From: Candidatus Poseidoniaceae archaeon
GTDB lineage: Archaea; Thermoplasmatota; Poseidoniia; Poseidoniales; Poseidoniaceae
DNA: 43,691 nucleotides
Assembly: GCA_029250345.1 (NCBI GenBank)
Contig: JAQXFL010000005.1
Span: 1-43,691 of the forward strand
Direction of reading: 5' to 3'
Shown here: piece by piece, positions 3,682 through 43,691 of the stretch
Numbering within the stretch: the stretch's first letter is position 1
How the letters are laid out: every line of letters begins with the position of its first letter
The notes under the pieces: model-generated
Told to the model about the DNA's origin: nothing
Seen by the model: the letters and a program-made list of their open reading frames with translations, nothing else
Databases searched by the model: none
Translations under genes and position numbers: made by a program

Positions 3682-4404
3682 ATGCAACCAAGCGGAAGAG
3701 GATATGACCACGGAATTACTACTTTTAGCCCAGACGGACGATTGTTCCAAGTTGAATACGCTCGAGAATCTGTAAAGCGTGGAACCACAACAGCCGGACT
3801 CAAGTTCCGTGACGGCGTGGTTCTGGTTTGTGACAAGCGCATTGTTAGTCGTCTTATTATCCCAGAATCCATTGAAAAGATGTTCAAGATTGACGAACAT
3901 ATTGGAATCGCAACCTCTGGCTTGGTCGCTGATGCTCGCCAACTCGTTGCACGTGCTCGTGTTGATGCTCAAGTCAACCGTATCACATACGCTGCAAGCG
4001 TTCCAGTCGATGTTTTGGTCAAGAAACTCTGTGACTTCAAGCAGTCGTTCACCCAATACGGTGGTTCACGACCGTTTGGTACGGCGTTGTTGATTGGCGG
4101 TGTTGACCCGAACGGTATCCACCTCTACGAAACCGACCCAAGTGGCGCATACCAGTCCTACCACGCTGGTGCTATCGGTAGCGGAAGAAACACCGTGATT
4201 GAATACTTCGAATCCAATTGGAAAGAAGGCCTAACACTCAATGCAGCAATGAAACTCGGGCTCGAAGCTCTTCGCAGTGCGAACGATACCGAACTAAACA
4301 GAGAAGCTGTGGAAGTTACCGTTGTTGATGGTGATGGATACCGTGTTCTCGACCGTTCTGAAGTGAACAAGCAAATCGACCGCTTGAAACCACTTGAGGA
4401 CTGA
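3682..4404 (+). CDS. psmA: Proteasome subunit alpha
   Basis: 'GYDHGITTFSPDGRLFQVEYA' is the canonical alpha-subunit N-terminus. ATG 3682 is in frame with the GTG 3667 listed in the ORF track. Confidence 0.95.
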   Translation: MQPSGRGYDHGITTFSPDGRLFQVEYARESVKRGTTTAGLKFRDGVVLVCDKRIVSRLIIPESIEKMFKIDEHIGIATSGLVADARQLVARARVDAQVNRITYAASVPVDVLVKKLCDFKQSFTQYGGSRPFGTALLIGGVDPNGIHLYETDPSGAYQSYHAGAIGSGRNTVIEYFESNWKEGLTLNAAMKLGLEALRSANDTELNREAVEVTVVDGDGYRVLDRSEVNKQIDRLKPLED

Positions 4405-8413: not shown

Positions 8414-9411
8414 GCACTAATGAGCAGCAAGCAGACTTGGAATCGTTTCACGATTGGTTGCTGAATGCTTGCTCACGTGGTGCTGTACCAATTGTTACCG
8501 GTAAGAACGGGGATATGGACACCATTGGCTCAGCTGTAGCACTCTCTGCAGCCCATCCAAACTTGATGGCATGTGGGCTTCATCTGGGGAGAACTGCCAA
8601 GCGTATGGTGGAATCTCTACAAGCACCCTTTCGTAAATTATCTGAGCAGCAAACTGTATGGCCGAAAAACATTGGTGGTGTCATCATTGTCGATGCTGCT
8701 GCTGCAAGCCAAGTGGGTGTTTCTCTGCCCGAAGGTACACCTTTTTGCGTTCTAGACCATCATGCAACATGCGATTGGGAACTCAGTGAAAGCGATTTGT
8801 TATTGCAATGGGATGTCCGTGCAACAACACAGATTGTCGACGCCTATCTTCGACTCTATGCACCACAATCCCGCTCTATTGTAGTACGAAAGATGCTTTT
8901 AGCAGGCCTGTTAACCGATACCGCTCGTTTTCGCCACGCAGACAAGGGTGCTTTCCAAACAGCCGTAGATCTCCTTTCAGGGGACGACATTGATTACGCA
9001 TCCTTTGTCGAATCGGTTGAATCAGAAACCACTTCTCCCAGCGAGCGTGGAAGTCTTTTACGAGGGCTAGAACGTGCGACATCAATTGATTCTGGTGCGT
9101 GGAATATTGTCCACACTTATTCAGGCACTCTCGAAGGAAGGTTAGCAAGCCTCCTCATTGGTACTGGCGCCGAAATTGCCCTTGTGAGCAGATTCCGGGA
9201 TGGAACAACCCGTCTCACAGCTCGTGCATCACGGCACACGACCCAGAGAGGTATTCACCTTGGAGAACTCATGGAGAAAGTGGCTGATCAAATTGGCGGT
9301 GAAGGCGGAGGTCACGATGGCGCTGCAGGTTGGAGCGGTAAAACCGATCGCATTGCCGCTGAGTCTTCTTTTATTGCGCAGGTGGCGCACATATCAAGGA
9401 GAGATGATTGA
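8410..9411 (+). CDS. DHH/DHHA1 family phosphoesterase (NrnA/RecJ-like nanoRNase or pAp phosphatase type)
   Basis: All DHH motifs are present: 'NGDMDTIGS' (I), 'VIIVDAA' (II), 'VLDHH' (III), 'LLTDTARF' (IV), plus DHHA1 'GGGHDGAAG'. ATGA overlap with the pfdB stop. Confidence 0.85.
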   Translation: MSTNEQQADLESFHDWLLNACSRGAVPIVTGKNGDMDTIGSAVALSAAHPNLMACGLHLGRTAKRMVESLQAPFRKLSEQQTVWPKNIGGVIIVDAAAASQVGVSLPEGTPFCVLDHHATCDWELSESDLLLQWDVRATTQIVDAYLRLYAPQSRSIVVRKMLLAGLLTDTARFRHADKGAFQTAVDLLSGDDIDYASFVESVESETTSPSERGSLLRGLERATSIDSGAWNIVHTYSGTLEGRLASLLIGTGAEIALVSRFRDGTTRLTARASRHTTQRGIHLGELMEKVADQIGGEGGGHDGAAGWSGKTDRIAAESSFIAQVAHISRRDD

Positions 9412-11941: not shown

Positions 11942-13234
11942 TCACTGGACGGACTTGAATCCTTCATGGTCGACGCCCCATGGGAGAGTAGCGTCAAATC
12001 CGACTTTGGCGGTTAACCCGTCACTGTCGCGAGAGGGATCGAGCGAACTGCCTTTTTGGTTTGACAGAATGAGCGTATCCTTGTCAGGTTGCCATCGAGT
12101 GACCATTGCCCACTCAACACGAACTGGGTTTCCGATATCGATGTCTTCATCAACGACAGTGACCATTTTCATGCTCCGATGCCCTGCAAGTGCGGCGTGA
12201 ATTGCATTCATTGAATCCTCAGGATTCTTCTTTCGGATTTTGACAACTGCGGCCAGCCAACCACAACCACCTTCAGTCATATGGACATCGATGCATTCAC
12301 AGACTTCATTGACGGCTGATTTGATGGTTGGGGCTCGTGGAAGCCCCATCAATGTCTTGTGTTCTGCCTCGCCGGGAATTAATGCATGGAATATTGGGTT
12401 GTCTCGGTGAACGACACCGTCGATTTCAATCACGGGCTCTTGACGAACATCATCAACAGTACCGGTGATATCTACGTATGGCCCTTCATCATCATCCTCG
12501 CCGGTGATGCGTCCCCAGAGAACATATTCAGCGTCAGCCGGGGCAAGAACTCCGTTCGGCATTCGTGTTAAGCGCAATGGTTTTCCATACAGTTTTTCGT
12601 GAAGCGCCGCTGCTATGGTGAGTTCATCGATGTTATCGTCGAACGACATAGCAGCCGCCAAGAGTACGACAGGATCTGGTGCATTGACGATTACTATGTC
12701 CACTTCGCGTCCTTCCTTGCGAGCGTTCATGGTAAGCGTCCGCAAGTGTCGCGGAACCAAACGGACAACCAGGTGATTTTCATCACGAACAAATTGGCGG
12801 TGGAACGACATGTTTCGTATGCCAGCATCTTGTGCGATAATTACGCTTGCCGATGAATAACGTCCACGGTCTTGAGGCCAGTGGTGCGGGATTGGAAGTT
12901 TGGTAATGTCGACAACTTCCTGCAAGTTTTCAAAACATTCAGCTTCGGAAGCATCGACAATGACGGGTTCACTTGGATTGTTCATTGCCCATCCGAGCGT
13001 GTCGATGTATTCTTCTGGCGTGATACCGATTGATTCACACAGTCGGTCACGAGTGAGGATATTGACGGCAGCACGTTGGCCGGGTGATTCTGGAATATTG
13101 GTGAATAAGGTGAGATCGTGATTGCTTGCACGCGAGTGCTCCCACATCCCGTGGATGAGGCTGGTTGGGGCTGGTTCTTCTTTGGCTGCGCCAAGGTGGT
13201 CACGGAAGGCCATGGCTCGTCCAGTTTGACGCAT
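11942..13234 (-). CDS. UbiD-family (prenyl-FMN dependent) decarboxylase
   Basis: 430-aa ORF with UbiD-like sequence throughout ('NMSFHRQFV', 'VVRLVPRHL', 'DEGPYVDITG', 'GGCGWLAAVVKIRK'). It is short, like archaeal UbiD homologues. Confidence 0.8.
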   Translation of the reverse strand: MRQTGRAMAFRDHLGAAKEEPAPTSLIHGMWEHSRASNHDLTLFTNIPESPGQRAAVNILTRDRLCESIGITPEEYIDTLGWAMNNPSEPVIVDASEAECFENLQEVVDITKLPIPHHWPQDRGRYSSASVIIAQDAGIRNMSFHRQFVRDENHLVVRLVPRHLRTLTMNARKEGREVDIVIVNAPDPVVLLAAAMSFDDNIDELTIAAALHEKLYGKPLRLTRMPNGVLAPADAEYVLWGRITGEDDDEGPYVDITGTVDDVRQEPVIEIDGVVHRDNPIFHALIPGEAEHKTLMGLPRAPTIKSAVNEVCECIDVHMTEGGCGWLAAVVKIRKKNPEDSMNAIHAALAGHRSMKMVTVVDEDIDIGNPVRVEWAMVTRWQPDKDTLILSNQKGSSLDPSRDSDGLTAKVGFDATLPWGVDHEGFKSVQ

Positions 13235-14630: not shown

Positions 14631-16838
14631 ATGGGCCGAAAGGAAGACAATATTAACAAAGCAACAGAAGTTATGCACATTTTACCTCAGATTCGAAATT
14701 TGTGTATCGCAGCACACATTGATCACGGAAAAACAACCCTCTCAGACAACCTCATTGCGGGAGCAGGCATGATGTCCAGTGACCTTGCAGGCGCAGCTCG
14801 TGTTCTCGATTTCGATGAGCAAGAATCCGCTCGTGGTATTACCATCAATGCAGCATCCGCATCGATGGTTCACGGCGTTGATGGTACCGACTACCTGATT
14901 AATCTCATCGACACACCCGGTCACGTTGACTTCGGTGGCGACGTAACACGTGCCATGCGTGCTGTTGACGGATGTTTCATCCTTGCATGTGCAGTCGAAG
15001 GCCCAATGCCTCAAACTGAAACCGTCGTTCGTCAAGCATTGAAAGAGAAGGTAAAGCCAGTTCTTTTCATCAACAAGGTTGACCGTCTCATCAATGAGTT
15101 GCAAGTAACTCCTGAAGACATGATGGCTCGATTTACTGAGACCATCAAAAAGGTCAACCGTCTTATCAAGCAGTTCGCTCCTGAAGAATTCAAGAAAAGC
15201 TGGCAAGTTTCCGTTGCAGACGGAACAGTCGCATTCGGTTCCGCATACCACAACTGGGGAATCACCGTCCCATACATGGCTAAATCCAAGATTTCGTTTA
15301 CAGAGATTTTCGAATACTGTAACAATGAAGACCAAAAGACACTTGCCCAAAAGGCTCCAGTCCATGAAGTTCTTCTCGACATGGCAGTTAGCAAGTTACC
15401 AGGACCTGTTGAAGCACAACCATACCGTATCCCTAACATTTGGACCGGTGATCTCGACTCGACTATTGGAAAGGCAATGATTAGCTGTGACCCAGAAGCC
15501 GAACTTGCCATGATGATCACCAAGATTTGGATGGATCCTCACGCAGGTGAAGTTGCTGTTGGACGTATTTACTCCGGTGCAATTGCACAAGGTGAATCGG
15601 TCTTTGCTATCGGTGCGGCCAAACCAGAACGTGTTCAGCAAGTCAGCATGATGGTTGGCGGCGATCGAATCACAGTCCCGAAGGTTGTTGCAGGAAACAT
15701 TGCAGCACTTACTGGTATTCGTTCTGCAGCAGCTGGTGTGACACTTTCACGCGACAAGGATTTCACTCCGTTCGAAGCTATTCGACACTACTCCGATCCA
15801 GTCGTTACCGTTGCAGTTGAGCCAAAGAGTATGAAGGACCTACCAAAGTTCATTGATGCGCTTCGTTCACTCGCAAAGTCAGATGCATCTCTCCAAGTCA
15901 CAACGAACCAAGAAACCGGTGAAGCATTGCTTGCTGGTATGGGTGAGTTGCATTTGGAAATCACCGTATACCGAATCGAAGAAGAACAGAACATCAAGGT
16001 CAGCGTCAGCCCGCCTATTGTCGTCTACCGAGAAGGTATCCAAGGAAGCAACCGTGGAAATGCGTTTGAAGGCAAATCTCCAAACCGTCACAACCGTTTC
16101 TTCTTTGAAATCGAAGCTCTCAGCCCTGAAGTGGTTACAGCACTGCGTGCTGGAGATTTGGGTTCCGGAACAATCCGGCCAAACGATGCAAAGGAAACCG
16201 GACGTAAGTTCGGCGAACTTGGAATGGACAAAGACTTGATGCGCAAGATTTACGCAATCAACGGCTCAAACGTTCTTGTGAACGACACCAAGGGTATTCA
16301 AGGCCTTCACGAAACCCGTGAACTTATCATTGAAGCTTTCAATGGCGTCTGTTCAAAAGGGCCTATTGCAGATGAACCAGTACAAGGAATGTTTGTTCGT
16401 CTTGTTGACGCAAAGCTTCACGAAGACGCTATCCACCGTGGTCCTGCACAAACAATTCCTGCAGTCCGAAACGGAATCAAAGGCGCAATGATGCGTGCCC
16501 GCACAGTTCTCTTGGAACCAATGCAAAAGGCATTCGTCTCAGTTCCAAACGACTGGCTCGGTCAAGTAACTCGTGAAGTTACAAACCGACGTGGTATCAT
16601 CGAAGATATGCCATCAGAAGGTGAAGTTACAACTGTTGTCGGTGTTCTACCAATCGCAGAAACATTCGGATTTTCCAATGATATCCGTGCTGCATCGCAA
16701 GGTCGAGCAGTTTGGAACACAGAAAACCTCGGCTTCGAACAATTGCCTCCACAATTGTTTGACAAAGTCGTCGGACAGATTCGTACACGTAAGGGGCTAA
16801 AGCCAGAACCTTACCCAGAATCCTACTATTCAGAGTGA
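14631..16838 (+). CDS. fusA: Translation elongation factor 2 (aEF-2)
   Basis: 'AHIDHGKTTLSDNL' and 'DTPGHVDF' GTPase motifs. Diphthamide-site loop 'HEDAIHRGPAQ'. 735 aa. 'aggtga' precedes the ATG. Confidence 0.97.
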   Translation: MGRKEDNINKATEVMHILPQIRNLCIAAHIDHGKTTLSDNLIAGAGMMSSDLAGAARVLDFDEQESARGITINAASASMVHGVDGTDYLINLIDTPGHVDFGGDVTRAMRAVDGCFILACAVEGPMPQTETVVRQALKEKVKPVLFINKVDRLINELQVTPEDMMARFTETIKKVNRLIKQFAPEEFKKSWQVSVADGTVAFGSAYHNWGITVPYMAKSKISFTEIFEYCNNEDQKTLAQKAPVHEVLLDMAVSKLPGPVEAQPYRIPNIWTGDLDSTIGKAMISCDPEAELAMMITKIWMDPHAGEVAVGRIYSGAIAQGESVFAIGAAKPERVQQVSMMVGGDRITVPKVVAGNIAALTGIRSAAAGVTLSRDKDFTPFEAIRHYSDPVVTVAVEPKSMKDLPKFIDALRSLAKSDASLQVTTNQETGEALLAGMGELHLEITVYRIEEEQNIKVSVSPPIVVYREGIQGSNRGNAFEGKSPNRHNRFFFEIEALSPEVVTALRAGDLGSGTIRPNDAKETGRKFGELGMDKDLMRKIYAINGSNVLVNDTKGIQGLHETRELIIEAFNGVCSKGPIADEPVQGMFVRLVDAKLHEDAIHRGPAQTIPAVRNGIKGAMMRARTVLLEPMQKAFVSVPNDWLGQVTREVTNRRGIIEDMPSEGEVTTVVGVLPIAETFGFSNDIRAASQGRAVWNTENLGFEQLPPQLFDKVVGQIRTRKGLKPEPYPESYYSE

Positions 16839-16843
16839 TCCGC

Positions 16844-17305
16844 ATGAACGGCTCGATTGTGGGCCTTTTTGCAGCACCTGAAGGTGGAGTTCCCAAGCCA
16901 CGTGTTGAACAACTCGAAGTTCGCGACGATGGCTGTACAGGCGATTATCAACGAGACAAGAAGCATCATGGCGGCCCTGACCGCGCTGTTTGCCTGTTCA
17001 GTTCCGAAGTCATTTCTCATTTACAAGAGAGCGGACATCCGATCTACCCGGGTTCCGTTGGTGAGAATATTCTCGTCAAGGGAGTCCAATGGGAAAATGT
17101 CGGTATTGGCTCGATTTTCCGCTTTGCCGACCTCACTTTGGAAGTTACATCTGATGCGCCACCGTGTAAGACGATTCGCGATTCATTTACCAACGGTAGA
17201 TTCAAGGAAATCTCAGTGAAAACAGCACCTCACATGACACGCTGGTACGCCAAAGTCATCAAGCAAGGCAACGTCAAAATCGGTGATGATTTTGAAATCA
17301 ACTGA
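16844..17305 (+). CDS. MOSC domain protein (YiiM-like)
   Basis: 'DKKHHGGPDRAVCLFS', 'PGSVGENILV' and 'PCKTI' are typical MOSC elements. ATG lies 5 nt after the EF-2 stop (or GTG 16835 overlapping it). Confidence 0.8.
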   Translation: MNGSIVGLFAAPEGGVPKPRVEQLEVRDDGCTGDYQRDKKHHGGPDRAVCLFSSEVISHLQESGHPIYPGSVGENILVKGVQWENVGIGSIFRFADLTLEVTSDAPPCKTIRDSFTNGRFKEISVKTAPHMTRWYAKVIKQGNVKIGDDFEIN

Positions 17306-19112
17306 TTCGCTTTAATTGGAAGTCTGTTAATTCACGCAAGGCCTTCATTGCAGGTCCTTGTGGAATGCGGTCCAAACAAGCGTGGGCCTTTGCGTGGTAA
17401 TCGACCGCACGTTGCTTTGCATAGTCGATCGAACCGAGGTTGCCCAATGCCTTGAGTGCATCAGCAATGGCTTGAGCATCTGCAGCCTCGCCTTTTCCGA
17501 GAGCCGCAAGCAAGGTTTGTTTGTCTTCACTGTCAGGTTGTGCAAGCGCATGAATCACCATCAATGTCCTCTTACCTTGAGCTACATCAGAACCTGCTGG
17601 TTTTCCGAGTACATCTGAGTCGGACAGCACATCAATCAAATCATCCATAAGTTGGAAGCAGAGTCCGACAGCAAGACCCCAATCTGCCATACAGTCAATT
17701 GTTTCTTGGTCTGCACCGGCCATTCTTGCGCCAATTTCTGCACAGGTGAGGAACATGACAGCAGTCTTTCCTTCAATCATCTCGATGTAGTCGTCTTCCG
17801 ATACTGCGAGTTCATCTTCAAATTCGATATCCATCTGCTGACCTTCGCTGACGCGACGGACCATCCAGGCAATTCTGTTTACGAGTGGGGCTACATCGTT
17901 TGCTTGAAGCCCTTCAGCTTGTACTAATCGCTCGAACGCAATTGCAAGCATTGCATCACCGGCATTGATGGCGGTAGGGAGGTCGAACTCAATGTGGACG
18001 GCATTTCTGCCTCGTCGAACATCATCGTCATCCATGATATCATCGTGAACCAATGTGAAGTTGTGGACTGTTTCAATCGCTGCACCCACATCGAGCATTC
18101 CAGAGTGAGAGTCGCCAACCGCTTTTCCGACGAGCCATGGTAATGTTGCACGCAGCCGCTTTCCACCTCCATGAATGAGGTGGGTCATTGCAGCAGCCAG
18201 TCTTTCATGACGTGAGGCCATCAAGCTGTTCATGATACGTTGCTCAACCAACGGCTTTACCTCGAGAACAGAGATGTTGAGGCCAGCCCCCTCGGCTTCG
18301 GGTAGCATGTGTGTTACATCGCCCATGTCGTGTATTTCATCGTCGCTTAATGCGCTCAAAGCATCCGAATCTCCAATGGCGCTCCACCAGTCATCGTTCA
18401 TGATTCGAGCAGCAATGCATCGGAACCACGGTGCGACCGATCCATTGGAACGTTCCTCTTCGATGAGCATATCTTCCAATTCCTCTTGGGATACCCACAT
18501 GGTTTCCGAGACTTCGTTTTCGTTGATGTTGAGTTCAACGTCTTTCTGAGCAACTAGAATATGGTCGATTTCTCTTTCAATCCATGTTTCATTCATTCGT
18601 GCTGAATAACGCATCTTGGTCATGAAGGTAAAGTCGTCCGCCGAAATATGGCTCGGGTCGATTCCAAGTTCCTGTTCTAGTTTACGAATTGCAGCGGTTT
18701 TTACACCGAGCGCCCCTTCTTCAACCAATTCTTCGTCGCTGTGAAGCGGGTGTGAGCAGCAGGAATTCGCCCAGACCCCTGGGAATGTGACTTTGCCGTG
18801 TGCTCGACGTTGGAGCAGCAATCTCTTCTTTGAATCAAACAGCAGAACACTGAATGCACGGTGGTACGCTCCTGCGTTCCGATGAGCCGCAATTTTGGAC
18901 AGAGGTCCGAGTACTGCGTCCTTTTCATTGACTGCAATAATGGCTTCGGACATGAGTGTCGACTGCGTAGAATCAGCACCCAACGAGTCGAGTAAATCCC
19001 TCTCAGAATCAGACAGTTCGATATTCGGGACGTCTGTTATATCGTATCCGCTCATGTGAACCCCGAGTTCAATGGATTCGCGGTCGCTACATGAAGAGTT
19101 CTGTAAAGTCAT
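17298..19112 (-). CDS. Bifunctional fusion: type-1 isopentenyl-diphosphate isomerase (N) + geranylgeranyl/polyprenyl diphosphate synthase (C)
   Basis: N-terminal half: 'HRAFSVLLFDSKKRLLLQRRAHGKVTFPGVWANSCCSHPL' and 'EREIDHILV' (IDI1 Cys/Glu motifs, eukaryote-like CCSHP). C-terminal half: FARM 'LVHDDIMDDDDVRRGR' and SARM 'FQLMDDLID'. Start is uncertain (TTG 19121, ATG 19112 or ATG 19055). Confidence 0.85.
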   Translation of the reverse strand: MTLQNSSCSDRESIELGVHMSGYDITDVPNIELSDSERDLLDSLGADSTQSTLMSEAIIAVNEKDAVLGPLSKIAAHRNAGAYHRAFSVLLFDSKKRLLLQRRAHGKVTFPGVWANSCCSHPLHSDEELVEEGALGVKTAAIRKLEQELGIDPSHISADDFTFMTKMRYSARMNETWIEREIDHILVAQKDVELNINENEVSETMWVSQEELEDMLIEEERSNGSVAPWFRCIAARIMNDDWWSAIGDSDALSALSDDEIHDMGDVTHMLPEAEGAGLNISVLEVKPLVEQRIMNSLMASRHERLAAAMTHLIHGGGKRLRATLPWLVGKAVGDSHSGMLDVGAAIETVHNFTLVHDDIMDDDDVRRGRNAVHIEFDLPTAINAGDAMLAIAFERLVQAEGLQANDVAPLVNRIAWMVRRVSEGQQMDIEFEDELAVSEDDYIEMIEGKTAVMFLTCAEIGARMAGADQETIDCMADWGLAVGLCFQLMDDLIDVLSDSDVLGKPAGSDVAQGKRTLMVIHALAQPDSEDKQTLLAALGKGEAADAQAIADALKALGNLGSIDYAKQRAVDYHAKAHACLDRIPQGPAMKALRELTDFQLKRIS

Positions 19113-19154
19113 TTGACACAACTGCGGATGAAAGTGAAAAAATTGAGGTGCAGT

Positions 19155-24429: not shown

Positions 24430-25455
24430 ATGGCAGAAGACGTATTGTATATTGGAATTGATTTGGGAACCTTCCGTTCGGTTATGGTTTCATCCGACAG
24501 CCACGAAGTAGAAGAGTTGACCGTTATCGGAACTCCGAAAGACCCGATTGCCCGTAATTTCCTCAAGCGAGATGTTCTCTTTGGTGAAGAAGCACTCAAA
24601 AATCGACTTGCACTCAACCTTTTCCGACCACTCGAACTTGGTGTTATCAAAGACACGCAAGAAGACCGTGAATTCATTGCACACTTTATCACCCACCTGA
24701 TTGGACTTTCCGACCCCGAAGACTACGATCGTGTCGTCGCTGTCATTGGTGCTCCTGCTGAAGCAAGTTATGTCGATAAGACTGCAATTTTCGACGCAGC
24801 TGCAGGTTCCGTAAACGCCGCTATGATTATTTCTGAACCATTCGCTGTTGCGTATGCACTGGACATGATTGAACACACTCTCGTCATTGATATTGGAGCA
24901 GGAACCGCAGATCTTTGCCGTGTTTACGGTACAATCCCTGGCCCTGGCGATCAAATGCACACCGGGCACGCTGGAGACTTTGTTGACCGAAAAATCATCG
25001 AAGAAGTGCAATCTAAGTACAGCGGTGCACAAATTACCAAGGATATGGCTCGCCGATGGAAGGAGCAATATTCCTTCGTAGGAACAGCATCCCCTGACGA
25101 ACCGGTTATGGTTGACTTCTCTATTGAAGGAAAAGCAATGAATCTCGATATTACCGACTGTATTCAGCGAGCATGTGAGTCTATTGTCGACCCTATCGTT
25201 GAAAACGTCAAGGAATTGATTTCTGGCTCGAACCCTGAGTATCACGACCAGTTCCGTCGAAACATGGTTCTCGCTGGTGGCGGCTCAGGAATCAAAGGCC
25301 TCGGGGCCATGATTGAGCGTAAACTCTCTGATATGGGCGATGTCAATGTACACGTCGTTGATGACCCGGTACGCTTGGGCGCAATGGGCGGTCTGCGACT
25401 TGCAATGGAAGTTCCTGAAGAAATGTGGAAGAACCTTACTCTCGCATCTCGCTGA
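24430..25455 (+). CDS. Actin-fold ATPase, MamK-family-like (MreB/MamK superfamily)
   Basis: Phosphate-1 'IGIDLGT', phosphate-2 'VIDIGAGTADLC', adenosine motif 'VLAGGGSGIKGL'. MamK-like stretches are 'GTIPGPGDQ', 'WKEQYSFVGT', 'NPEY' and 'DDPVRLGAMGGLRLA'. Confidence 0.8.
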   Translation: MAEDVLYIGIDLGTFRSVMVSSDSHEVEELTVIGTPKDPIARNFLKRDVLFGEEALKNRLALNLFRPLELGVIKDTQEDREFIAHFITHLIGLSDPEDYDRVVAVIGAPAEASYVDKTAIFDAAAGSVNAAMIISEPFAVAYALDMIEHTLVIDIGAGTADLCRVYGTIPGPGDQMHTGHAGDFVDRKIIEEVQSKYSGAQITKDMARRWKEQYSFVGTASPDEPVMVDFSIEGKAMNLDITDCIQRACESIVDPIVENVKELISGSNPEYHDQFRRNMVLAGGGSGIKGLGAMIERKLSDMGDVNVHVVDDPVRLGAMGGLRLAMEVPEEMWKNLTLASR

Positions 25456-37866: not shown

Positions 37867-37925
37867 GCGTAACAAGCGTGTGGCCTAAACCACATCTTGA
37901 AAAACAGTGTGGGGCAGGAACATGT

Positions 37926-39140
37926 ATGTCAGCATGGGAATCTTCCGTTCTCGATGCGGGTTCTAACCCTGAATGGAAGTCACTCTTGCCACAACTTGTC
38001 GGTGACCTCGATACTTGGAGTGCGACTCTACAGCCAGTTGCTGCCAAGATTTCCAACGGTCAACGCCTCACGCTTGCCGATGGTATTGTTCTCTTTGAGC
38101 ATCCCAATCTTTCGGAGGTTGGACGATTGGCAAATTGTGTCCGTTCCGCTCGATTCGGCTCGAATGCTTTTTTCAATTCCAATGTGCATGTCAATCAGAC
38201 CAACATTTGTGTTCTCGCTTGCAAGTTTTGTGCCTTCCGTCGTTCTAAGAAAGCGAAGGATGCTTACGCATTAGACGTCAGTGCATACCTCGAAGACCTC
38301 GGTCAATATGCCGAGCATGTCGACGAAGTACACTCCGTTGGTGGATTGCATCCTGATTGGGGTGTCGAACATTACGCAGAACTCTTCAAGGCATCACGGG
38401 AACGCTTCCCGCATGTATCCATCAAGGCCTTGACTGCTGTCGAAATCAAACACCTTTCCCAACTCTCGAACATGAGTTACAAAGACACTCTCCAACAACT
38501 TAGAGATGCAGGCCTTGGTTCGCTACCAGGTGGAGGTGCAGAGATCCTTGACGATGACGTACGAGCGATTATTTGCAACGGAAAAGAAAGTTCATCCGAG
38601 TACCTCGAAATCCATCGCACCGCCCATGAACTCGGAATTCCTACCAATTGTACAATGCTTTTTGGAACCATTGAAACACTTGAACAGCGATTAATGCACA
38701 TGATTCAATTACGAGAAGTCAACGATGACACCTCCGGTTTCCAGTGCTTTGTCCCCTATCCGTTCCTTCCTGACCACACACGGCTTCCTGAAGCCCAACT
38801 TGCAACGGGTAGCGAGATTCTACGTACCATCGCCGTTTCCCGCCTCATGTTGGATACCATTCCTCACATCAAGGCCTACAGGATGAACATTGGTGATGAA
38901 TTAGCCGAGTTAGCCCTCCAATACGGTGCTGACGATATCGATGGAACAGTCCAGAAAGAATCAATCATGCATCTTGCCGGCTCAACAACACCACTCGACC
39001 ACGACCGTATTCGCCTTGCGCGTCTTATCACGGATGCTGGATGTGTCCCTGTCCAAAGAAACACGACTTACGAAAGATTCGAAATCTTCATTCCACCAGA
39101 GCCTAAGCCTCGTAGAGGGTTAAAAATGGCCAGCCCCTGA
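37926..39140 (+). CDS. Radical SAM enzyme of the futalosine pathway (MqnE/MqnC family)
   Basis: Cluster motif 'CVLACKFCAF' (CxxxCxxC), 'GGGAEIL', 'GADDIDGTVQKESIMHLAG'. I cannot separate MqnE from MqnC by eye. Confidence 0.75.
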   Translation: MSAWESSVLDAGSNPEWKSLLPQLVGDLDTWSATLQPVAAKISNGQRLTLADGIVLFEHPNLSEVGRLANCVRSARFGSNAFFNSNVHVNQTNICVLACKFCAFRRSKKAKDAYALDVSAYLEDLGQYAEHVDEVHSVGGLHPDWGVEHYAELFKASRERFPHVSIKALTAVEIKHLSQLSNMSYKDTLQQLRDAGLGSLPGGGAEILDDDVRAIICNGKESSSEYLEIHRTAHELGIPTNCTMLFGTIETLEQRLMHMIQLREVNDDTSGFQCFVPYPFLPDHTRLPEAQLATGSEILRTIAVSRLMLDTIPHIKAYRMNIGDELAELALQYGADDIDGTVQKESIMHLAGSTTPLDHDRIRLARLITDAGCVPVQRNTTYERFEIFIPPEPKPRRGLKMASP

Positions 39141-39176
39141 GGAAGAGAGATGGTTGAATCACATTGGATGCAAACG

Positions 39177-39947
39177 ATGGGCAGAGTTGCTTTTCTCAAT
39201 TGCGACCCACTGTTCTATGGATTAGAGACCAATTGGAATATTCTCGCTGCCCCGCCTGCATGGCTTACCGGTCATCTACTGCGTAAGGACTGCATACTTG
39301 CACCAATACCGGCGGCAGACTATGCTCGGCATGCCGACGAACTGATACTGCTGCCAGACATTGGGATTTGCAGTCGAGGTGAAGTTGGTAGTGTTCTTGT
39401 CTTCGGAAATAAGCCTCTCGAGCAAATGAAATCCATTGCTTTACCAACGGACTCAGCTACTTCAGTTCAATTGTTGAAGTACCTCTTGAAAAAGCGAAAC
39501 TTGGACCCCGAATTTGTTCTTATGGGCCCTGATCTCGAGGGGATGCTGAAACAATGCGAAGGAGCGCTGCTCATTGGTGACCGTGCTCTTGAAGGTGCCA
39601 AAATCGCACCGAATACTGTTCAACTCGATTTAGGTCAAGACTGGCTTAAATTCACTCAAAAACCTATGGTGTTTGGCGTTTTTGCAGCTCGTAAGGATAC
39701 GCCAATTGAATCTCTTCGTCACGCACACGCCGTTCTTAACGACAATTTGCGTCATTTCGAACAAAGTGCTGAGCAACGTCAGAGCGTAATAGAATGGGCC
39801 ATGACACGTTCGCATCTTGATTATGAGCGATTAGATCGGTACTTTGGAGAAGTGTTCAATCGCATCGACAGTGAAAATCTCTCTGGGCTTAATGAGTTCC
39901 TCACGAAAGCATGTGGGCTAAAGTCGGGTGCAGAATTCGCTTGGTAA
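39177..39947 (+). CDS. mqnA: Chorismate dehydratase MqnA-like (VitK2_biosynth family)
   Basis: 'GRVAFLNCDPLFYGL', 'ILAPIPAADY', 'GEVGSVLVF', 'ALLIGDRAL'. Start is ATG 39177 or upstream 39150/39168. Confidence 0.7.
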   Translation: MGRVAFLNCDPLFYGLETNWNILAAPPAWLTGHLLRKDCILAPIPAADYARHADELILLPDIGICSRGEVGSVLVFGNKPLEQMKSIALPTDSATSVQLLKYLLKKRNLDPEFVLMGPDLEGMLKQCEGALLIGDRALEGAKIAPNTVQLDLGQDWLKFTQKPMVFGVFAARKDTPIESLRHAHAVLNDNLRHFEQSAEQRQSVIEWAMTRSHLDYERLDRYFGEVFNRIDSENLSGLNEFLTKACGLKSGAEFAW

Positions 39948-42161
39948 TCAGTCATCATCTGCGGTTTCGTCCTTCTTGTCAGAATAGGTAACCACCCTTC
40001 GAGTTTTTACTTTCCTTTGTGTTGGTTTTTCTTTAACCACCTTTTTCTTTGAAGCAGTCTTCCTCCGAGGTAGTTCTTCAGATGTTGCTGCATTACTGTC
40101 TAGGCGTCGACGCTTGACCTTCGTAATCGGGCCATCCTTTGGTGCTACTTTTTGAACGGCCTTTCTGCGGGTCTTAACGGGTTTGTCTTCAGACTTTTCG
40201 CGAGGTTCATCAGTGGTTACGTCTCGCTCCTCACTGTAACCTTCATCATTGTTCTGGAGATCATCAACTTCTTCGTCGTATTCCGGTTCATCATCGCTGA
40301 TTGTACCGAGCTCTCCTTCATCTTCAACGTCCATATCGAGTTCTAAATCCATTGCGTTCTTGGTTCTCATCAGCACCACAGCGACTCCTGCCAGCAAGAG
40401 TATGACTGGGGCAAACAGGATTGGATTGTCGATGAACCCTTCAATCACTTTTGTCGCAATGCCTGGCTCTTCTTTGACCACTTCCTCCAACGTGATGCTC
40501 AGTTCACCCTCACTCACCCACCAAGGAGAATAATAGAATTCATTCGATTCCGAAGATAATGCAGTAACATCGATGGGGTGGAGTTCAGCATGTTGGGCCA
40601 AAGAGGCATCAGTTGACTTCGGTTGAGATCGAATGTTAAATTCAAGCGGGTATGTTACCGTATCACTGAGATTAAAGTAAATCGAGTAGGTGACAGCAAT
40701 GTGCGTTTTTTGGTCACTCACTGCAGTAAATGCCATTCCTCGTTCGACATTGCATTCGACACGAGCATTTGTAAGCTGACCCGATGACATTTGTATGGCG
40801 TCTTTCCAAGAACTGATGTAGTGAATTTGGTTCATATTTTTGCACGTTGCATCGGCAAAAAGTACAGCCTCTTCTTCACTCAACTGCGTATCCGTCACAA
40901 CAGAACGCCGAGAAAGATTTCGCAATGCTGAGGAGAGTTGAATGTCGAGGGTGAATGTATCGTCAAGGATTAATCCAGTAGAATTAAACTGGAGTGAAAC
41001 TTTCCGGATGGTCTCTACATCCGGGTTTTTGCTGCATGCTTGGGTAAAAGTTTCACAATTGTTGTCTCGGATATCGGGAATTGCATCACCGTCATCATCA
41101 TCATCAAACTCATCTGGAAGTTCATCTCCATCCAAATCAGCGCCGCTTTCACCCTGTCCTACTGCTACACTCGGAGCGCCATAGACTGCAATATGTCCCG
41201 TATCCGTCGCTACATAGGCCATTTGGCGTGTGCCAAATTGGTTCTCGACGATATCGAAACCCATGGCTTGATGAGCGAGATAAATCGATACGATGTCGTT
41301 GAGTGATGTGGAATCCACTGTGAGAATTCTCTGTGAAATTCCAGTTTCGAGGAGGTGGATTTGGTTGTTGTTGACCGACCATAGCAACTGCGAGCCCCCC
41401 TCAAAATTTCTTTCAGATATTGCTCCACCGGAAAATGACCAGAGTGCCATTTGACCTTGTTCGGTAAATACAGCAAGTTGTTCGTCCACTGAATCAAAGT
41501 CACAACTCACCACTTTTGAATCGTGGTCCCATTGCTTGCCGGTTGGATTCCCCTCAAGCGTCCACATGACGACACGACCACTTTCATCGCCGGTCAAAAT
41601 GTAACTTCCGAGGGATGAAAAATCCACACATGTCACCTTCGTATTGTGCTCTCCGTTGAGCGTTCGTTCGACTTGCATGTCCGATGCACGAAGTAGATTG
41701 ATTCCATTGTTGGTGTTTGGGACTGCGATTAGGTTTCCATCCGGCGACCATTCTATACGTTCTGAGCGCGAATTGGAACCACTCTGTTTCGAGGTCAGCG
41801 TCATTGATTCAACATCAATGACTTGTATCGTATCGGTATCGGTTACAGAGCCGGTCATGGCAAATGCGATCAATGTTCCATCAGGAGAGAACTTGATATC
41901 CAATACATCACCGTCTACGTCAAAGGATTCGACCAATTCTAAGCTGCTCAAATTGTGAATTGCTACTAATCCATCATATCCACTTGCAATCAAGGTTTCA
42001 TCTGGGCTTATATGGACCGTACGAGATTCCTCTGCATTCTCTGTCACAGTTACATCGACAAAAGCAATATCTGAGTATTGGCCTGCGACCACTGAAACTG
42101 AACTTGCTAGAAACACCGCTAAGCAAAGTAGCGTTTGTATTCTTAACCGTCGATTGTCCAT
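39948..42161 (-). CDS. Type-I membrane surface protein: signal peptide, WD40-like beta-propeller, Asp-rich Ca-binding-like linker, unknown domain, TM, charged cytoplasmic tail
   Basis: 737 aa. Signal-like 'LLCLAVFLASSVSVVAG'. Repeated 'SPDG.LIA' blades (ISPDETLIASG, FSPDGTLIAFA, WSPDGNLIAVP, LTGDESGRVVMW). 'DLDGDELPDEFDDDDDGDAIPD'. TM 'ILFAPVILLLAGVAVVLM'. The 139-aa tail is acidic in its first half and Lys/Arg-rich in its second. Confidence 0.7.
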   Translation of the reverse strand: MDNRRLRIQTLLCLAVFLASSVSVVAGQYSDIAFVDVTVTENAEESRTVHISPDETLIASGYDGLVAIHNLSSLELVESFDVDGDVLDIKFSPDGTLIAFAMTGSVTDTDTIQVIDVESMTLTSKQSGSNSRSERIEWSPDGNLIAVPNTNNGINLLRASDMQVERTLNGEHNTKVTCVDFSSLGSYILTGDESGRVVMWTLEGNPTGKQWDHDSKVVSCDFDSVDEQLAVFTEQGQMALWSFSGGAISERNFEGGSQLLWSVNNNQIHLLETGISQRILTVDSTSLNDIVSIYLAHQAMGFDIVENQFGTRQMAYVATDTGHIAVYGAPSVAVGQGESGADLDGDELPDEFDDDDDGDAIPDIRDNNCETFTQACSKNPDVETIRKVSLQFNSTGLILDDTFTLDIQLSSALRNLSRRSVVTDTQLSEEEAVLFADATCKNMNQIHYISSWKDAIQMSSGQLTNARVECNVERGMAFTAVSDQKTHIAVTYSIYFNLSDTVTYPLEFNIRSQPKSTDASLAQHAELHPIDVTALSSESNEFYYSPWWVSEGELSITLEEVVKEEPGIATKVIEGFIDNPILFAPVILLLAGVAVVLMRTKNAMDLELDMDVEDEGELGTISDDEPEYDEEVDDLQNNDEGYSEERDVTTDEPREKSEDKPVKTRRKAVQKVAPKDGPITKVKRRRLDSNAATSEELPRRKTASKKKVVKEKPTQRKVKTRRVVTYSDKKDETADDD

Positions 42162-42274: not shown

Positions 42275-43159
42275 ATGGTGGCAGAGTTACCTCTCGATGA
42301 AAACGGAAACAAAATTGTACGGATTGGCCACTCACCAGACCCCGACGACGCCTTCATGTTTCACGCCATGACAACCGGCGCTTTTCCAACTCCTGGTTAC
42401 AATTTTGTCCATGAACTACAGGATATCGAAACCCTCAACCACAGAGCAATGAATTGCGAACTGGAAGTGTCTGCTGTCTCAATTCATGCCTTTCCTGAGA
42501 TTTCCGATGACTATGCACTCATGAACTGTGGTGCATCAATGGGCGAAGGATACGGTCCGATGGTTGTCTCTCTTGCTGGCGCCTCAACCGAAGAAGTACG
42601 TTCATCGACCATCGCAGTGCCTGGTTTGAAAACCAGCGCATACCTCGGTCTTCGACTTGCATGGGGCGACTGTGATATTGCAGTGGTACCGTTCGACGAG
42701 ATTATTCCTCGAGTTCTCGATGGGACATACAAGAGCGGTCTTATCATTCACGAGGGTCAACTCACTTACGTCGACCACAACCTAAAGGTCCACGTCGACC
42801 TTGGCATATGGTGGAATGAACGTACCGACGGCTGGCCTATGCCGTTGGGTGGAAACGTCGTGCGACGTGATCTTGGGCAGCAAGTAATGGAAGATATAAC
42901 CAAATACACCAAAATGAGCATTGAATTCGCTCTTCAATCACCAGATGAGGCTCTTGAGTTTGCTAAAAAATGGGGTCGCGGTATTGATGACGATACCAAC
43001 CGCGAATTCGTCGGAATGTATGTGAATGAACGCACAATTGACTACGAAAACGAAGGCAGAGCCTCAGTACGACAATTCATCCGTGAAGGACAGGAGATCG
43101 GCATGATTCAGATGGATTTCGATACTTCCACAATGGCCTTTATCGGCGCAAATGAGTGA
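42275..43159 (+). CDS. mqnD: 1,4-dihydroxy-6-naphthoate synthase MqnD-like (VitK2_biosynth family)
   Basis: 'RIGHSPDPDDAFMF', 'DIETLN', 'IAVPGLKTSAYLGLRL', 'GLIIHEGQLTY', 'DLGIWWNERT', 'MPLGGNVVRRDLG'. ATG 42275 follows 'ggtggga'. Confidence 0.7.
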   Translation: MVAELPLDENGNKIVRIGHSPDPDDAFMFHAMTTGAFPTPGYNFVHELQDIETLNHRAMNCELEVSAVSIHAFPEISDDYALMNCGASMGEGYGPMVVSLAGASTEEVRSSTIAVPGLKTSAYLGLRLAWGDCDIAVVPFDEIIPRVLDGTYKSGLIIHEGQLTYVDHNLKVHVDLGIWWNERTDGWPMPLGGNVVRRDLGQQVMEDITKYTKMSIEFALQSPDEALEFAKKWGRGIDDDTNREFVGMYVNERTIDYENEGRASVRQFIREGQEIGMIQMDFDTSTMAFIGANE

Positions 43160-43653
43160 TCCAAATGGCAGTCGAAAAGCGGATGCCGGGTGTGAGCCAA
43201 TACGGATCTGTTGACCCCGCCCCCGCAGAATTCAAGGGCGATGTAACTTCTTGGGCCGAAACGCTGTGCGATGAATCACTGCCAATGTTTCAAAGAATGC
43301 GGAGCGTCTTCTCTTTGAGAAATCTCGGTTCTGACGATGCTTGTTTGGCCCTTTGCTCTGGATTTTCAGCTTCAAGCGCACTTTTACGTCATGAGTTGGC
43401 CTATGTATTGGGGCAAATGCAAAACGATACTGCACTCCCTGCACTTATTGAGCGCTTAAGCGACGCAGGAGAGCACATTATGGTACGTCACGAAGCTGCA
43501 GAGGCACTTGGCGCTATCGGTAATTTAGAAGCAAAGCCCGTTCTCGAAGAATTTCTACACGATGAAAATCCAGAGGTTGCAGAATCCTGCGAAGTCGCTC
43601 TCGACTTGCTGAATTGGTGCGCTACCAGTGAATGGGATGAGGCAGAATGGTGA
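43156..43653 (+). CDS. Half-size deoxyhypusine hydroxylase (DOHH)-like HEAT-repeat protein
   Basis: 'SVDPAP', 'LCDESLPMFQRMRSVFSLRN', 'SALLRHELAYVLGQMQ', 'MVRHEAAEALGAIG' and 'ESCEVALDLL' match the linker plus C-terminal four-HEAT half of eukaryotic DOHH, including two His-Glu metal motifs. Start is GTG 43156 (overlapping the mqnD stop) or ATG 43165. Confidence 0.75.
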   Translation: MIQMAVEKRMPGVSQYGSVDPAPAEFKGDVTSWAETLCDESLPMFQRMRSVFSLRNLGSDDACLALCSGFSASSALLRHELAYVLGQMQNDTALPALIERLSDAGEHIMVRHEAAEALGAIGNLEAKPVLEEFLHDENPEVAESCEVALDLLNWCATSEWDEAEW

Positions 43654-43691
43654 CGAAAATGAACCTCAAGTTCAAAGACTCAATACTCTTC

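What the first reader, a model, noticed from the sequence alone, without database searches (positions are those of the whole stretch)
43156..43653. Stand-alone half-size DOHH-like di-iron HEAT protein abutting mqnD
Eukaryotic deoxyhypusine hydroxylase is about 300 aa. It is an internal duplication of two four-HEAT halves, and each half contributes two His-Glu motifs to a di-iron centre. This 165-aa ORF matches, by eye, the inter-domain linker plus the C-terminal half:
- SVDPAP
- L.DES.P.F.R.R..F.LRN
- SAL.RHE..YVLGQ.Q
- MVRHE.AEALGAI
- ESCEVALD

It keeps exactly two HE motifs. As I recall the literature, archaea have long been reported to lack DOHH homologues even though some make hypusine, so an archaeal half-DOHH bears directly on that puzzle. 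It would have to homodimerise, or pair with a second half, to build the di-iron site. It also resembles the pre-duplication ancestor.

An alternative reading comes from gene context. Its start overlaps or abuts the mqnD stop (GTGA, or ATG 5 nt later). It could therefore hydroxylate a quinone or naphthoate intermediate rather than aIF5A.

A further ORF begins at ATG 43647, overlapping the stop (ATGGTGA), and runs off the window (MVTKMNLKFKDSILF...). It could encode the partner half.
Basis: partly seen in the sequence, partly recalled or inferred. Interest (0 to 1): 0.8.

Follow-up and report, generated by a model that had tools for sequence, protein, structure and literature searches.

The report
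Half-size deoxyhypusine hydroxylase in marine archaea
Marine Group II archaea carry a conserved gene for exactly one half of the eukaryotic enzyme that completes the hypusine modification of translation factor 5A, although reviews state that archaea have no such enzyme.

Summary
The ORF is real. It is most likely 43165-43653 (162 aa); the GTG at 43156 is an alternative start.

- **DOHH specificity:** it matches human DOHH (4D4Z) at E = 9e-66. It scores 102-122 bits per half, against 38 bits or less for generic HEAT units. The model's best structural match is 4D4Z (TM 0.85).
- **Conserved residues:** both His-Glu motifs, the substrate-anchoring Glu and Gly, and the SVDPAP tail are at least 99% conserved in 113 proteins of 153-177 aa.
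- **Distribution:** all named relatives are Poseidoniales (Marine Group II) MAGs. There are 399 hits in GTDB species genomes, and contigs reach 2 Mb, so this is not an artefact.
- **Gene context:** MqnD lies directly upstream in 90 of 90 loci, even after local rearrangement.
- **"Partner half" ORF:** the ORF at 43647 is spurious. It reads through a conserved intergenic motif that precedes a 68-69 aa zinc-ribbon gene and primase PriS.
- **Relation to the two halves:** outside the linker the protein is not specifically a C-half. It fits N-half and C-half profiles equally (161 and 163 bits).
- **Most likely function:** a homodimeric di-iron hydroxylase that acts on deoxyhypusinated aIF5A. This is inferred, not shown.
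- **Origin:** whether it is a pre-duplication relic or an ancient transfer is unresolved.

The parts
43165..43653 (+). CDS of the half-size DOHH homologue: 162 aa plus stop, four HEAT repeats. An alternative GTG start at 43156 would give 165 aa and overlap the mqnD stop.
   Evidence: ORF list. Orthologue lengths of 159-162 aa. 4D4Z at E = 9e-66. AlphaFold2 pLDDT 91.9 with 8 helices. Foldseek top hit 4D4Z, TM 0.85.
43207..43224 (+). Codons for S15-V-D-P-A-P20. This N-terminal tail motif is identical to the conserved motif in the inter-domain linker of eukaryotic DOHH.
   Evidence: At least 99% conserved in 113 half-size proteins. Aligns to human YLSVDPAP. Modelled as coil with pLDDT about 66-71 in the monomer.
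43390..43395 (+). His76-Glu77, the first His-Glu motif. It corresponds to human H56-E57 and H207-E208: the His is an iron ligand and the Glu anchors the deoxyhypusine side chain.
   Evidence: CAT GAG read. At least 99% conserved. Invariant against both eukaryotic halves. Residue roles from PMC9117371 and PMC3306375.
43411..43413 (+). Gly83 in the LGQ motif. It corresponds to human G63 and G214, which are substrate-binding residues.
   Evidence: At least 99% conserved. Invariant in A1. Role from PMC9117371 (printed there as G65/G214).
43489..43494 (+). His109-Glu110, the second His-Glu motif, within MVRHEAAEALG. It corresponds to human H89-E90 and H240-E241, which are iron ligands.
   Evidence: CAC GAA read. 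At least 99% conserved. Invariant in A1.
42275..43159 (+). mqnD (1,4-dihydroxy-6-naphthoate synthase, futalosine pathway). It lies directly upstream on the same strand, with its stop 5 nt before ATG 43165. Its start is uncertain: ATG 42275 is favoured, and TTG 42194 or ATG 42236 are possible.
   Evidence: Pfam VitK2_biosynth at 2e-64. PDB TTHA1568/3A3U at 4e-47 and AF1704 at 4e-68. Adjacent upstream in 90 of 90 loci, including the rearranged loci L088-L090.
43665..43680 (+). Conserved intergenic motif CTCAAGTTCAAAGACT downstream of the stop codon. It is probably the promoter of the next transcription unit (zinc-ribbon gene and priS, which lie beyond the window end). It makes the DOHH-like gene the last cistron of the mqnD unit.
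   Evidence: A loose regular-expression form of the motif is found in 59 of 90 loci within 150 nt of the stop. The zinc-ribbon start MPH[ED][HN] lies 40-69 nt after the stop in 86 of 90 loci. The promoter assignment is an inference.
43647..43691 (+). It is spurious and is not part of the system.
   Evidence: The same frame in L001 reads ATG GTG ATA TTT TGA. The real downstream gene is in another frame.

Best explanation
The gene encodes a single-domain, four-HEAT-repeat homologue of deoxyhypusine hydroxylase. It is a conserved chromosomal gene of Poseidoniales (Marine Group II archaea).

Proposed mechanism: two copies associate through their concave faces into a symmetric homodimer. This reproduces the pseudo-two-fold N-domain/C-domain arrangement of eukaryotic DOHH. 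Each protomer gives His76, His109 and Glu110 to one iron of a di-iron centre. Each also gives Glu77 and Gly83 to hold the deoxyhypusine side chain. With O2, the enzyme converts deoxyhypusine on aIF5A to hypusine.

The gene is expressed as the last cistron of a two-gene unit behind mqnD.

Shown here: specific homology to DOHH, the fold, conservation of the catalytic and substrate-binding residues, the genuine half size, and the distribution and gene context.

Inferred: dimerisation, iron binding, the substrate, and co-transcription.
For: - **Specific homology to DOHH:** human DOHH matches at E = 9e-66, with both halves matched at 102 and 122 bits. Generic four-HEAT units from giant HEAT proteins score 38 bits or less and carry no HE motif.
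- **Fold:** Foldseek gives 4D4Z at TM 0.85 and 47-48% identity. The next hits are designed alphaRep proteins at 28-30% identity. The model has pLDDT 91.9 and 8 helices.
- **Residue conservation:** H76, E77, G83, H109 and E110 are at least 99% conserved in 113 proteins. They are invariant against both eukaryotic halves. They correspond to the iron ligands and the deoxyhypusine-binding residues listed in PMC9117371 and PMC3306375.
- **Consistent with one protein playing both roles:** N-half HMM 160.9 bits and C-half HMM 162.5 bits, compared with 161.1 bits for true N-halves on the N-half HMM. The query is 45% identical to N-halves and 50% to C-halves, whereas the two halves of one eukaryotic protein are 40% identical to each other.
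- **No second HEAT gene nearby:** none within about 8-10 kb in 90 loci.
- **Single-locus chromosomal gene:** it lies on contigs up to 1.7-2.06 Mb, and there are 399 hits in GTDB species genomes.
- **Native composition:** GC 0.50 and GC3 0.44.
- **Upstream pathway step:** the literature reports a DHS homologue clustered with arginine decarboxylase and agmatinase genes in MGII/Poseidoniales (PMC10407285).
Against: - There is no biochemical or structural evidence for dimerisation, iron binding or activity on aIF5A.
- DHS and aIF5A were not found in this window. They were not checked directly in a Poseidoniales genome.
- The invariant pairing with mqnD (90 of 90 loci, kept through rearrangement) could point to a quinone-related substrate instead.
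- Euryarchaeota analysed so far are reported to carry mainly deoxyhypusine rather than hypusine (PMC5178350).
- A second, unlinked half-size paralogue elsewhere in the genome was not excluded.
Confidence: 0.6

Rival explanations
1. The protein has the same di-iron HEAT chemistry but a different substrate. It would hydroxylate a naphthoate or menaquinone intermediate, or otherwise serve the futalosine pathway, as the functional partner of MqnD.
For: MqnD lies immediately upstream on the same strand in 90 of 90 loci. In the loci with gene calls, the gap ranges from none to 12 nt. The pair survives a rearrangement that moved or removed all the other neighbours (L088-L090). Other futalosine and quinone genes lie nearby: MqnA, a radical-SAM CofH_C-type gene, a UbiD-like gene and a polyprenyl synthase.
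Against: No hydroxylation step is known after MqnD in the futalosine route (my own knowledge of the pathway). The residues whose only known role is to bind the deoxyhypusine side chain (the equivalents of E57/E208 and G63/G214) are at least 99% conserved. The whole domain is about 45-50% identical to eukaryotic DOHH. That is not expected after a switch from a protein lysine derivative to an aromatic small molecule. A gene with no promoter of its own must stay behind its upstream gene to be expressed, and this alone explains the fixed adjacency. The next promoter-like motif lies just downstream.
Confidence: 0.12
2. The protein works as a heterodimer with a second half-size DOHH-like protein encoded elsewhere in the genome.
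For: Eukaryotic DOHH uses two non-identical halves. A whole Poseidoniales genome could not be scanned with these tools. Only the best 80 of the 399 GTDB hits were visible.
Against: The proposed partner ORF at 43647 is spurious. No second DOHH-like gene lies within about 8-10 kb in 90 loci. The one MAG with two copies (L019 and L058) has mqnD upstream of both, so it is a mixed bin and not a case of paralogues. Only one half-size cluster representative appears among the best 150 representatives. The protein fits N-half and C-half profiles equally, as expected for a protein that plays both roles.
Confidence: 0.08
3. The protein does not function as a di-iron hydroxylase. It could be a monomer whose two His and one Glu bind a single iron, or a non-catalytic HEAT scaffold that binds aIF5A.
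For: One chain offers only two His and one Glu, which resembles a mononuclear facial triad. Pfam sees only generic HEAT repeats. Euryarchaeota have been reported to carry mainly deoxyhypusine (PMC5178350).
Against: There is near-invariance of every residue needed for the di-iron and substrate functions, plus the linker motif, across a family with 57-97% pairwise identity to the query. In DOHH the active site is formed between two four-repeat domains (PMC9117371, PMC3306375).
Confidence: 0.08
4. The ORF is an assembly artefact, a truncated pseudogene, or a fragment of a frameshifted full-length gene.
For: The window ends 38 nt after the stop codon. The exact protein is not on record in the contig index.
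Against: The same 153-177 aa protein occurs in more than 100 clusters, on contigs up to 1.7-2.06 Mb. MqnD occupies the upstream side in 90 of 90 loci. A zinc-ribbon gene occupies the downstream side in 86 of 90. A 97%-identical locus on a 168-kb contig shows the same layout (L008).
Confidence: 0.01

Closest known systems
Eukaryotic deoxyhypusine hydroxylase (human DOHH, PDB 4D4Z; yeast Lia1; Drosophila Nero; EC 1.14.99.29)
   Same: The HEAT-repeat fold is the same. The core is 45-50% identical to each half. The motifs SALL(R/K)HE-AY-LGQ, MVRHEAAEALGAIG and ESCEVALD are shared. The iron-ligand and deoxyhypusine-binding residues are conserved. The linker motif SVDPAP is present. It is the best sequence and structure match by a wide margin.
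   Different: It has one four-repeat domain (162 aa) instead of two in one chain of about 300 aa. It has two His-Glu motifs per chain instead of four. It is equidistant from the N and C halves. It is encoded in an archaeal chromosome behind mqnD. Its activity, metal content and oligomeric state are untested.
PBS-lyase / E-Z type HEAT-repeat proteins (Pfam HEAT_PBS and HEAT_2; CpcE/CpcF, NblB; E. coli YibA; designed alphaRep proteins)
   Same: The repeat type is the same. The Pfam HEAT_2 and HEAT_PBS matches are significant. Structural similarity is TM about 0.65.
   Different: These proteins have no His-Glu motifs. Identity is only 28-30%. The NblB and CpcE equivalog scores are 28 and 21 bits against cut-offs of 300 and 330. 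No metal centre is known in these proteins.
Plasmodium DOHH, reported to have five HEAT repeats instead of eight (cited in PMC3306375)
   Same: It is precedent for a DOHH with fewer than eight HEAT repeats.
   Different: It is a eukaryotic single-chain enzyme. It is not a clean single-domain half and it was not examined here.

Membership tests
Deoxyhypusine hydroxylase (DOHH) | Sequence similarity to DOHH clearly above that to generic HEAT-repeat proteins | tested here: met
   4D4Z matches at E = 9e-66, with 102 and 122 bits per half. Generic four-HEAT units score 38 bits or less. The full-length relatives that carry names are eukaryotic DOHHs at 46-54% identity.
Deoxyhypusine hydroxylase (DOHH) | All-alpha HEAT-repeat superhelical fold | tested here: met
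   AlphaFold2 pLDDT 91.9 with 8 helices, that is 4 hairpins. Foldseek top hit 4D4Z with TM 0.85.
Deoxyhypusine hydroxylase (DOHH) | Eight HEAT repeats in one chain, arranged as a symmetric dyad of two four-repeat domains | tested here: not met
   There are only four repeats in 162 aa. The flanking genes are MqnD and a zinc-ribbon gene in 90 and 86 of 90 loci. A dyad could only arise by dimerisation.
Deoxyhypusine hydroxylase (DOHH) | [quoted passage not shown] | tested here: not met
   There are two per chain (H76-E77 and H109-E110), both at least 99% conserved. The per-domain complement of two is met. Four would require a dimer.
Deoxyhypusine hydroxylase (DOHH) | Iron-ligand residues equivalent to H56/H89/E90 and H207/H240/E241 | tested here: met
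   H76, H109 and E110 align to both ligand sets and are invariant in A1. They are at least 99% conserved in the family. The ligand list is from PMC3306375 and PMC9117371.
Deoxyhypusine hydroxylase (DOHH) | Deoxyhypusine side-chain binding residues equivalent to E57/E208 and G63/G214 | tested here: met
   E77 and G83 are conserved at 99% or more. The residue roles are from PMC9117371.
Deoxyhypusine hydroxylase (DOHH) | Binds two irons and forms a peroxo-diiron(III) intermediate with O2 | not testable with these tools
   This needs recombinant protein, metal analysis and spectroscopy.
Deoxyhypusine hydroxylase (DOHH) | Hydroxylates deoxyhypusine on (a/e)IF5A | not testable with these tools
   This needs an enzyme assay or metaproteomic detection of hypusine on Poseidoniales aIF5A.
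Deoxyhypusine hydroxylase (DOHH) | Co-occurs in the genome with deoxyhypusine synthase and IF5A | not tested
   Neither gene is in the window. [quoted passage not shown] It also reports a DHS homologue ('speY') clustered with arginine decarboxylase and agmatinase genes in MGII/Poseidoniales (PMC10407285).
PBS-lyase HEAT proteins (CpcE, NblB and relatives) | Reaches the NCBIfam equivalog cut-offs for NblB, CpcE or CpeY | tested here: not met
   Scores are 28, 21 and 12 bits against cut-offs of 300, 330 and 600. Only the generic repeat models HEAT_2 and HEAT_PBS are passed.
Futalosine-pathway (Mqn) enzymes | Homology to a known Mqn enzyme, or a known pathway step that needs such an activity | tested here: not met
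   There is no Pfam, NCBIfam or PDB match to any Mqn protein. The only link is the conserved adjacency to MqnD.

The most novel reading that the evidence does not exclude
The Poseidoniales protein is a surviving single-domain form of DOHH that split from the eukaryotic lineage at or before the internal duplication. On this reading, eukaryotic DOHH arose by tandem duplication and fusion of a homodimeric archaeal-type half-enzyme like this one, and hydroxylation of deoxyhypusine is not a eukaryotic invention. The equidistance from the N and C halves, the near-star tree, and the native composition are compatible with this. So is the fact that the protein does not behave like a recently captured C-half: it scores 162.5 bits on the C-half HMM against 181 for true C-halves, and 160.9 on the N-half HMM against 141 for true C-halves. 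Against it, the family was seen only in one archaeal order. The tail looks linker-derived. Bootstrap support is weak, at 37-65%. Outgroup rooting never placed the archaeal clade as sister to N plus C (0 of 100 replicates).
Probability: 0.27. Interest if true: 0.85.

Novelty: new variant of a known kind. Interest (0 to 1): 0.7.

Why it matters
[quoted passage not shown] Here is a DOHH-specific homologue that is conserved across an abundant order of planktonic archaea.
- **It is a natural minimal DOHH.** Because it is exactly one domain, it lets one test whether a symmetric homodimer can build the di-iron site and bind IF5A.
- **It makes a testable prediction.** Poseidoniales aIF5A should carry hypusine rather than only deoxyhypusine. 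That would tie maturation of a translation factor to oxygen and iron supply in the surface ocean. Existing marine metaproteomes could check this.
- **It bears on the origin of the eukaryotic enzyme.** The protein sits midway between the two eukaryotic halves.
- **Its limit.** It does not explain hypusine in Crenarchaeota, where no such gene was seen.

Tried and rejected
- **Exact-protein contig look-up.** Nothing was on record for the window's protein. Relatives were used instead, along with a 97%-identical GTDB locus (L008).
- **'Partner half' at 43647.** Rejected, because the frame is not conserved and the sequence is an intergenic motif.
- **Frameshifted full-length gene or artefact.** Rejected.
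- **Generic PBS-lyase HEAT protein.** Rejected.
- **Homodimer test.** I tried to model a tandem self-fusion with a paired alignment (A3).
- **Outgroup rooting.** I tried to root the N/C/archaeal tree with nine generic four-HEAT units. The outgroup attached to single long-branch taxa in 91 of 100 replicates, so this was uninformative.
- **NJ tree.** It gives three clades with weak support: 45, 37 and 65 of 100 replicates. No maximum-likelihood program was available.
- **Search for DHS, aIF5A or spermidine genes in the window.** None were found among 32 ORFs scanned.
- **Literature searches.** No paper in the searchable library links DOHH to archaea, Marine Group II, Asgard archaea, metagenomes or gene transfer. 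That library lacks most subscription journals. Park et al. 2006 and Kim et al. 2006 were not held.
- **Distribution outside Poseidoniales.** This could not be determined.
Full report
**1. Observation**

The ORF 43156-43653 (+) exists.
- Its GTG overlaps the TGA stop of the upstream gene.
- An ATG at 43165 lies 5 nt after that stop and gives 162 aa, which is the length of most close orthologues. I take 43165-43653 as the gene. The start codon cannot be settled from sequence alone.
- 'HE' occurs exactly twice. These are H76-E77 and H109-E110 in 162-aa numbering.

**2. It is specifically DOHH-like, not a generic HEAT protein**

- Pfam sees only HEAT_2 and HEAT_PBS. NCBIfam gives only far-sub-threshold PBS-lyase hits, for example NblB at 28 bits against a cut-off of 300. 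Neither library returned a DOHH-specific match.
- Against PDB sequences, human DOHH 4D4Z is the top hit at E = 9.3e-66. The query aligns to both halves: residues 11-138 (102 bits) and 144-285 (122 bits).
- Generic four-HEAT units cut from giant HEAT-repeat proteins score 38 bits or less over the same span and have no HE motif.
- An AlphaFold2 model built on 91 orthologues has pLDDT 91.9 and eight helices, that is four HEAT hairpins. The N-terminal 26 residues are coil with lower confidence.
- Foldseek against the PDB puts 4D4Z first (TM 0.85, 47-48% identity, E = 1e-10). Designed alphaRep HEAT proteins follow at 28-30% identity and E = 8e-6 or weaker.

**3. The half size is genuine and the family is large**

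- A search of 5.8 billion proteins returned more than 100 clusters of 153-177 aa proteins at 63-93% identity. The named ones are labelled Poseidoniaceae, Poseidonia, Euryarchaeota or Thermoplasmatota MAGs. Their contigs reach 1.7 Mb.
- IMG's pipeline already calls some of them 'deoxyhypusine monooxygenase'. NCBI calls them 'HEAT repeat domain-containing protein'.
- A scan of one genome per GTDB species found 399 stretches that encode a relative. The best 80 (61-97% identity) are all MAGs of this kind. They include the original MG-II chromosome CM001443.1 (2.06 Mb) and a 97%-identical locus on a 168-kb contig (L008).
- The full-length relatives (about 280-340 aa, two matched stretches) are at 46-54% identity. 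Those that carry names are eukaryotic DOHHs.
- Among the best 150 cluster representatives at 50% identity, only one is half-size. This is P0240 (159 aa, 58% identity), a marine cluster of 177 members.
- In 113 half-size proteins the following are at least 99% conserved: both HE motifs, Gly83 of the LGQ motif, the MVRHEAAEA and ESC-VA-D segments, and the N-terminal SVDPAP motif.
- These residues correspond to the six iron ligands (H56, H89, E90, H207, H240, E241) and to the residues that bind the deoxyhypusine side chain (E57, E90, E208, E241, G63/65, G214) of human DOHH (PMC9117371, PMC3306375).

**4. Gene context**

- The upstream gene is MqnD: PDB TTHA1568/3A3U at 4e-47 and AF1704 at 4e-68.
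- The gene at 39150-39947 is MqnA, chorismate dehydratase.
- A 737-aa WD40 protein lies between them on the other strand.
- In all 90 related loci fetched, MqnD lies directly upstream on the same strand. In the loci with gene calls the gap ranges from none to 12 nt.
- In the most divergent clade (P0240 type, L088-L090) the neighbourhood is rearranged. PriS and the zinc-ribbon gene are now upstream on the opposite strand, MqnA and the radical-SAM gene are downstream on the opposite strand, and the WD40 gene is gone. The MqnD to half-DOHH pair is still intact. The pair is therefore a conserved unit and not just part of a synteny block.
- Downstream, 86 of 90 loci have a 68-69 aa zinc-ribbon gene (MPHEHITLAQAPNGEIGPRC...) that starts 40-69 nt after the stop, followed by primase PriS.
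- The intergenic stretch carries a conserved motif, CTCAAGTTCAAAGACT, at window 43665-43680. A loose form of it is found in 59 of 90 loci. I read it as the promoter of the next unit, which is an inference.
In L001 the same frame stops after four codons, and the real downstream gene is in another frame. There is no partner half at this locus.
- No DHS, aIF5A or spermidine gene was found among the 32 window ORFs scanned.

**5. Relation to the two eukaryotic halves**

The N-terminal tail does match the eukaryotic inter-domain linker motif (YLSVDPAPP). The first repeat is also C-like (F-R-R--F-LRN, EA-LAL). The four-repeat core as a whole, however, is equidistant from both halves:
- Identity to N-halves averages 45.2% and to C-halves 49.7%. 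The two halves of the same eukaryotic protein average only 39.7% to each other. In 40 of 46 proteins the archaeal sequence is closer to the N-half than that protein's own C-half is.
- At the four columns where the N and C consensus residues differ, the archaeal family has the N state three times and the C state once.
- The archaeal halves score 160.9 bits on an HMM of N-half cores, the same as true N-halves (161.1). They score 162.5 bits on an HMM of C-half cores, where true C-halves score 181.1 and N-halves 126.2.
- An NJ tree recovers three clades with weak support (N 45, C 37, archaeal 65 of 100 replicates). The distances imply a near-star with about equal stems.
- Outgroup rooting was uninformative.
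- GC and GC3 are native.

Together these results argue against a recent capture of the C-half of a crown eukaryote's gene. They fit any of three alternatives:
- a lineage that separated around the time of the duplication;
- an old transfer followed by slow evolution;
- evolution of a homodimer subunit towards a symmetric, consensus-like sequence.

The family was seen only in one archaeal order, and trans-domain transfer between MGII and stramenopiles has been proposed for another gene (PMC10407285). I therefore do not favour the relic reading and give it about 0.27.

**6. Mechanism**

The most likely reading (confidence 0.6) is as follows:
- Two copies form a symmetric homodimer that recreates the pseudo-dyad of eukaryotic DOHH.
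- Each protomer ligates one iron through H76, H109 and E110.
- Each protomer helps to anchor the deoxyhypusine side chain through E77 and G83.
- The substrate is deoxyhypusinated aIF5A.

The homology, fold and residue conservation are shown here. Dimerisation, metal binding and the substrate are inferred.

Supporting context from the literature:
- DHS homologues are reported in all sequenced archaeal genomes (PMC5178350).
- MGII/Poseidoniales carry a cluster of arginine decarboxylase, agmatinase and a DHS homologue (PMC10407285). This parallels the agmatine-based deoxyhypusine route proposed for Haloferax in PMC5178350.

The conserved but poorly modelled SVDPAP tail may pack against the partner subunit. 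This is speculation.

The main rival (0.12) is a role tied to MqnD and menaquinone synthesis, because the pairing is invariant. Two points count against it. No known hydroxylation step follows MqnD. The deoxyhypusine-binding residues are also fully conserved. A gene with no promoter of its own would stay behind mqnD in any case.

**7. Comparison with what is known, and novelty**

- It works like DOHH, and it is a member of the DOHH sequence family at the domain level.
- It fails two architectural criteria of the described enzyme: eight repeats in one chain and four HE motifs.
- The accessible literature states that archaea and bacteria lack DOHH (PMC3306375, PMC5178350, PMC8153317).
- None of my searches found a paper describing an archaeal or half-size DOHH. 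That library is incomplete, and automated IMG annotation already uses the DOHH name.
- I class it as a new variant of a known kind, with interest 0.7.
- It does not explain hypusine in Crenarchaeota.

Noticed in passing
window 43654-43691; L001-L087 downstream of the DOHH-like stop codon: A conserved intergenic motif, CTCAAGTTCAAAGACT (window 43665-43680), lies about 30-35 nt upstream of the next gene's ATG. A GAGGG-like element lies just before that ATG. This is probably the archaeal promoter and ribosome-binding site of the zinc-ribbon/priS unit.
   Followed up: partly
L001 10547-10753; L002 10543-10752; L005 10524-10733; L008 about 8548-8754 (beyond the window end): A conserved 68-69 aa zinc-ribbon protein (MPHEHITLAQAPNGEIGPRCxxCG...) lies next to the primase small-subunit gene priS in every locus with gene calls, and between the DOHH-like gene and priS in 86 of 90 loci. 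A small ORF still accompanies priS in the rearranged loci L088-L090. Its function is unknown. The only family hit is a weak one to Pfam YrzR_Zn_ribbon.
   Followed up: partly
window 39948-42161 (-): A 737-aa WD40/beta-propeller protein has a hydrophobic N-terminus, an acidic stretch, a predicted membrane segment and a highly charged Lys/Glu-rich tail. It is inserted on the opposite strand between mqnA and mqnD. It is absent from the rearranged loci L088-L090.
   Followed up: no
window 37878-39140, 39150-39947, 42275-43159, 11942-13234, 17298-19121: The window holds a scattered set of futalosine-pathway and quinone genes. These are a radical-SAM gene (identified as CofH_C type by synteny with L001), MqnA, MqnD, a UbiD-like decarboxylase, and a NUDIX-polyprenyl synthase fusion.
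   Followed up: partly
window 2844-3887 (-) and 14631-16838 (+): A diphthamide synthase (Dph6-type) gene has an N-terminal extension of about 125 aa. It lies in the same window as aEF2, the protein it modifies. So a second translation-factor modification enzyme sits 25-40 kb from the DOHH-like gene.
   Followed up: no
window 24430-25455 (+): An actin-fold protein matches MreB_Mbl (8e-26) and the Salactin family (2e-16).
   Followed up: no
L019 and L058 (MAG CTOTU8138, contigs DAIUCF010000028.1 and DAIUCF010000088.1): One MAG carries two mqnD-DOHH loci, at 78% and 65% identity to the query. Both have mqnD upstream, so the bin most likely mixes two Poseidoniales populations rather than holding paralogues.
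   Followed up: partly
L005 9119-9998; L006 several genes: In long-read 'pilon' contigs several genes are split into two or three ORFs, including mqnD, the radical-SAM gene and MetRS. These look like residual indel errors and not real pseudogenes. The DOHH-like gene is intact in all of them.
   Followed up: no
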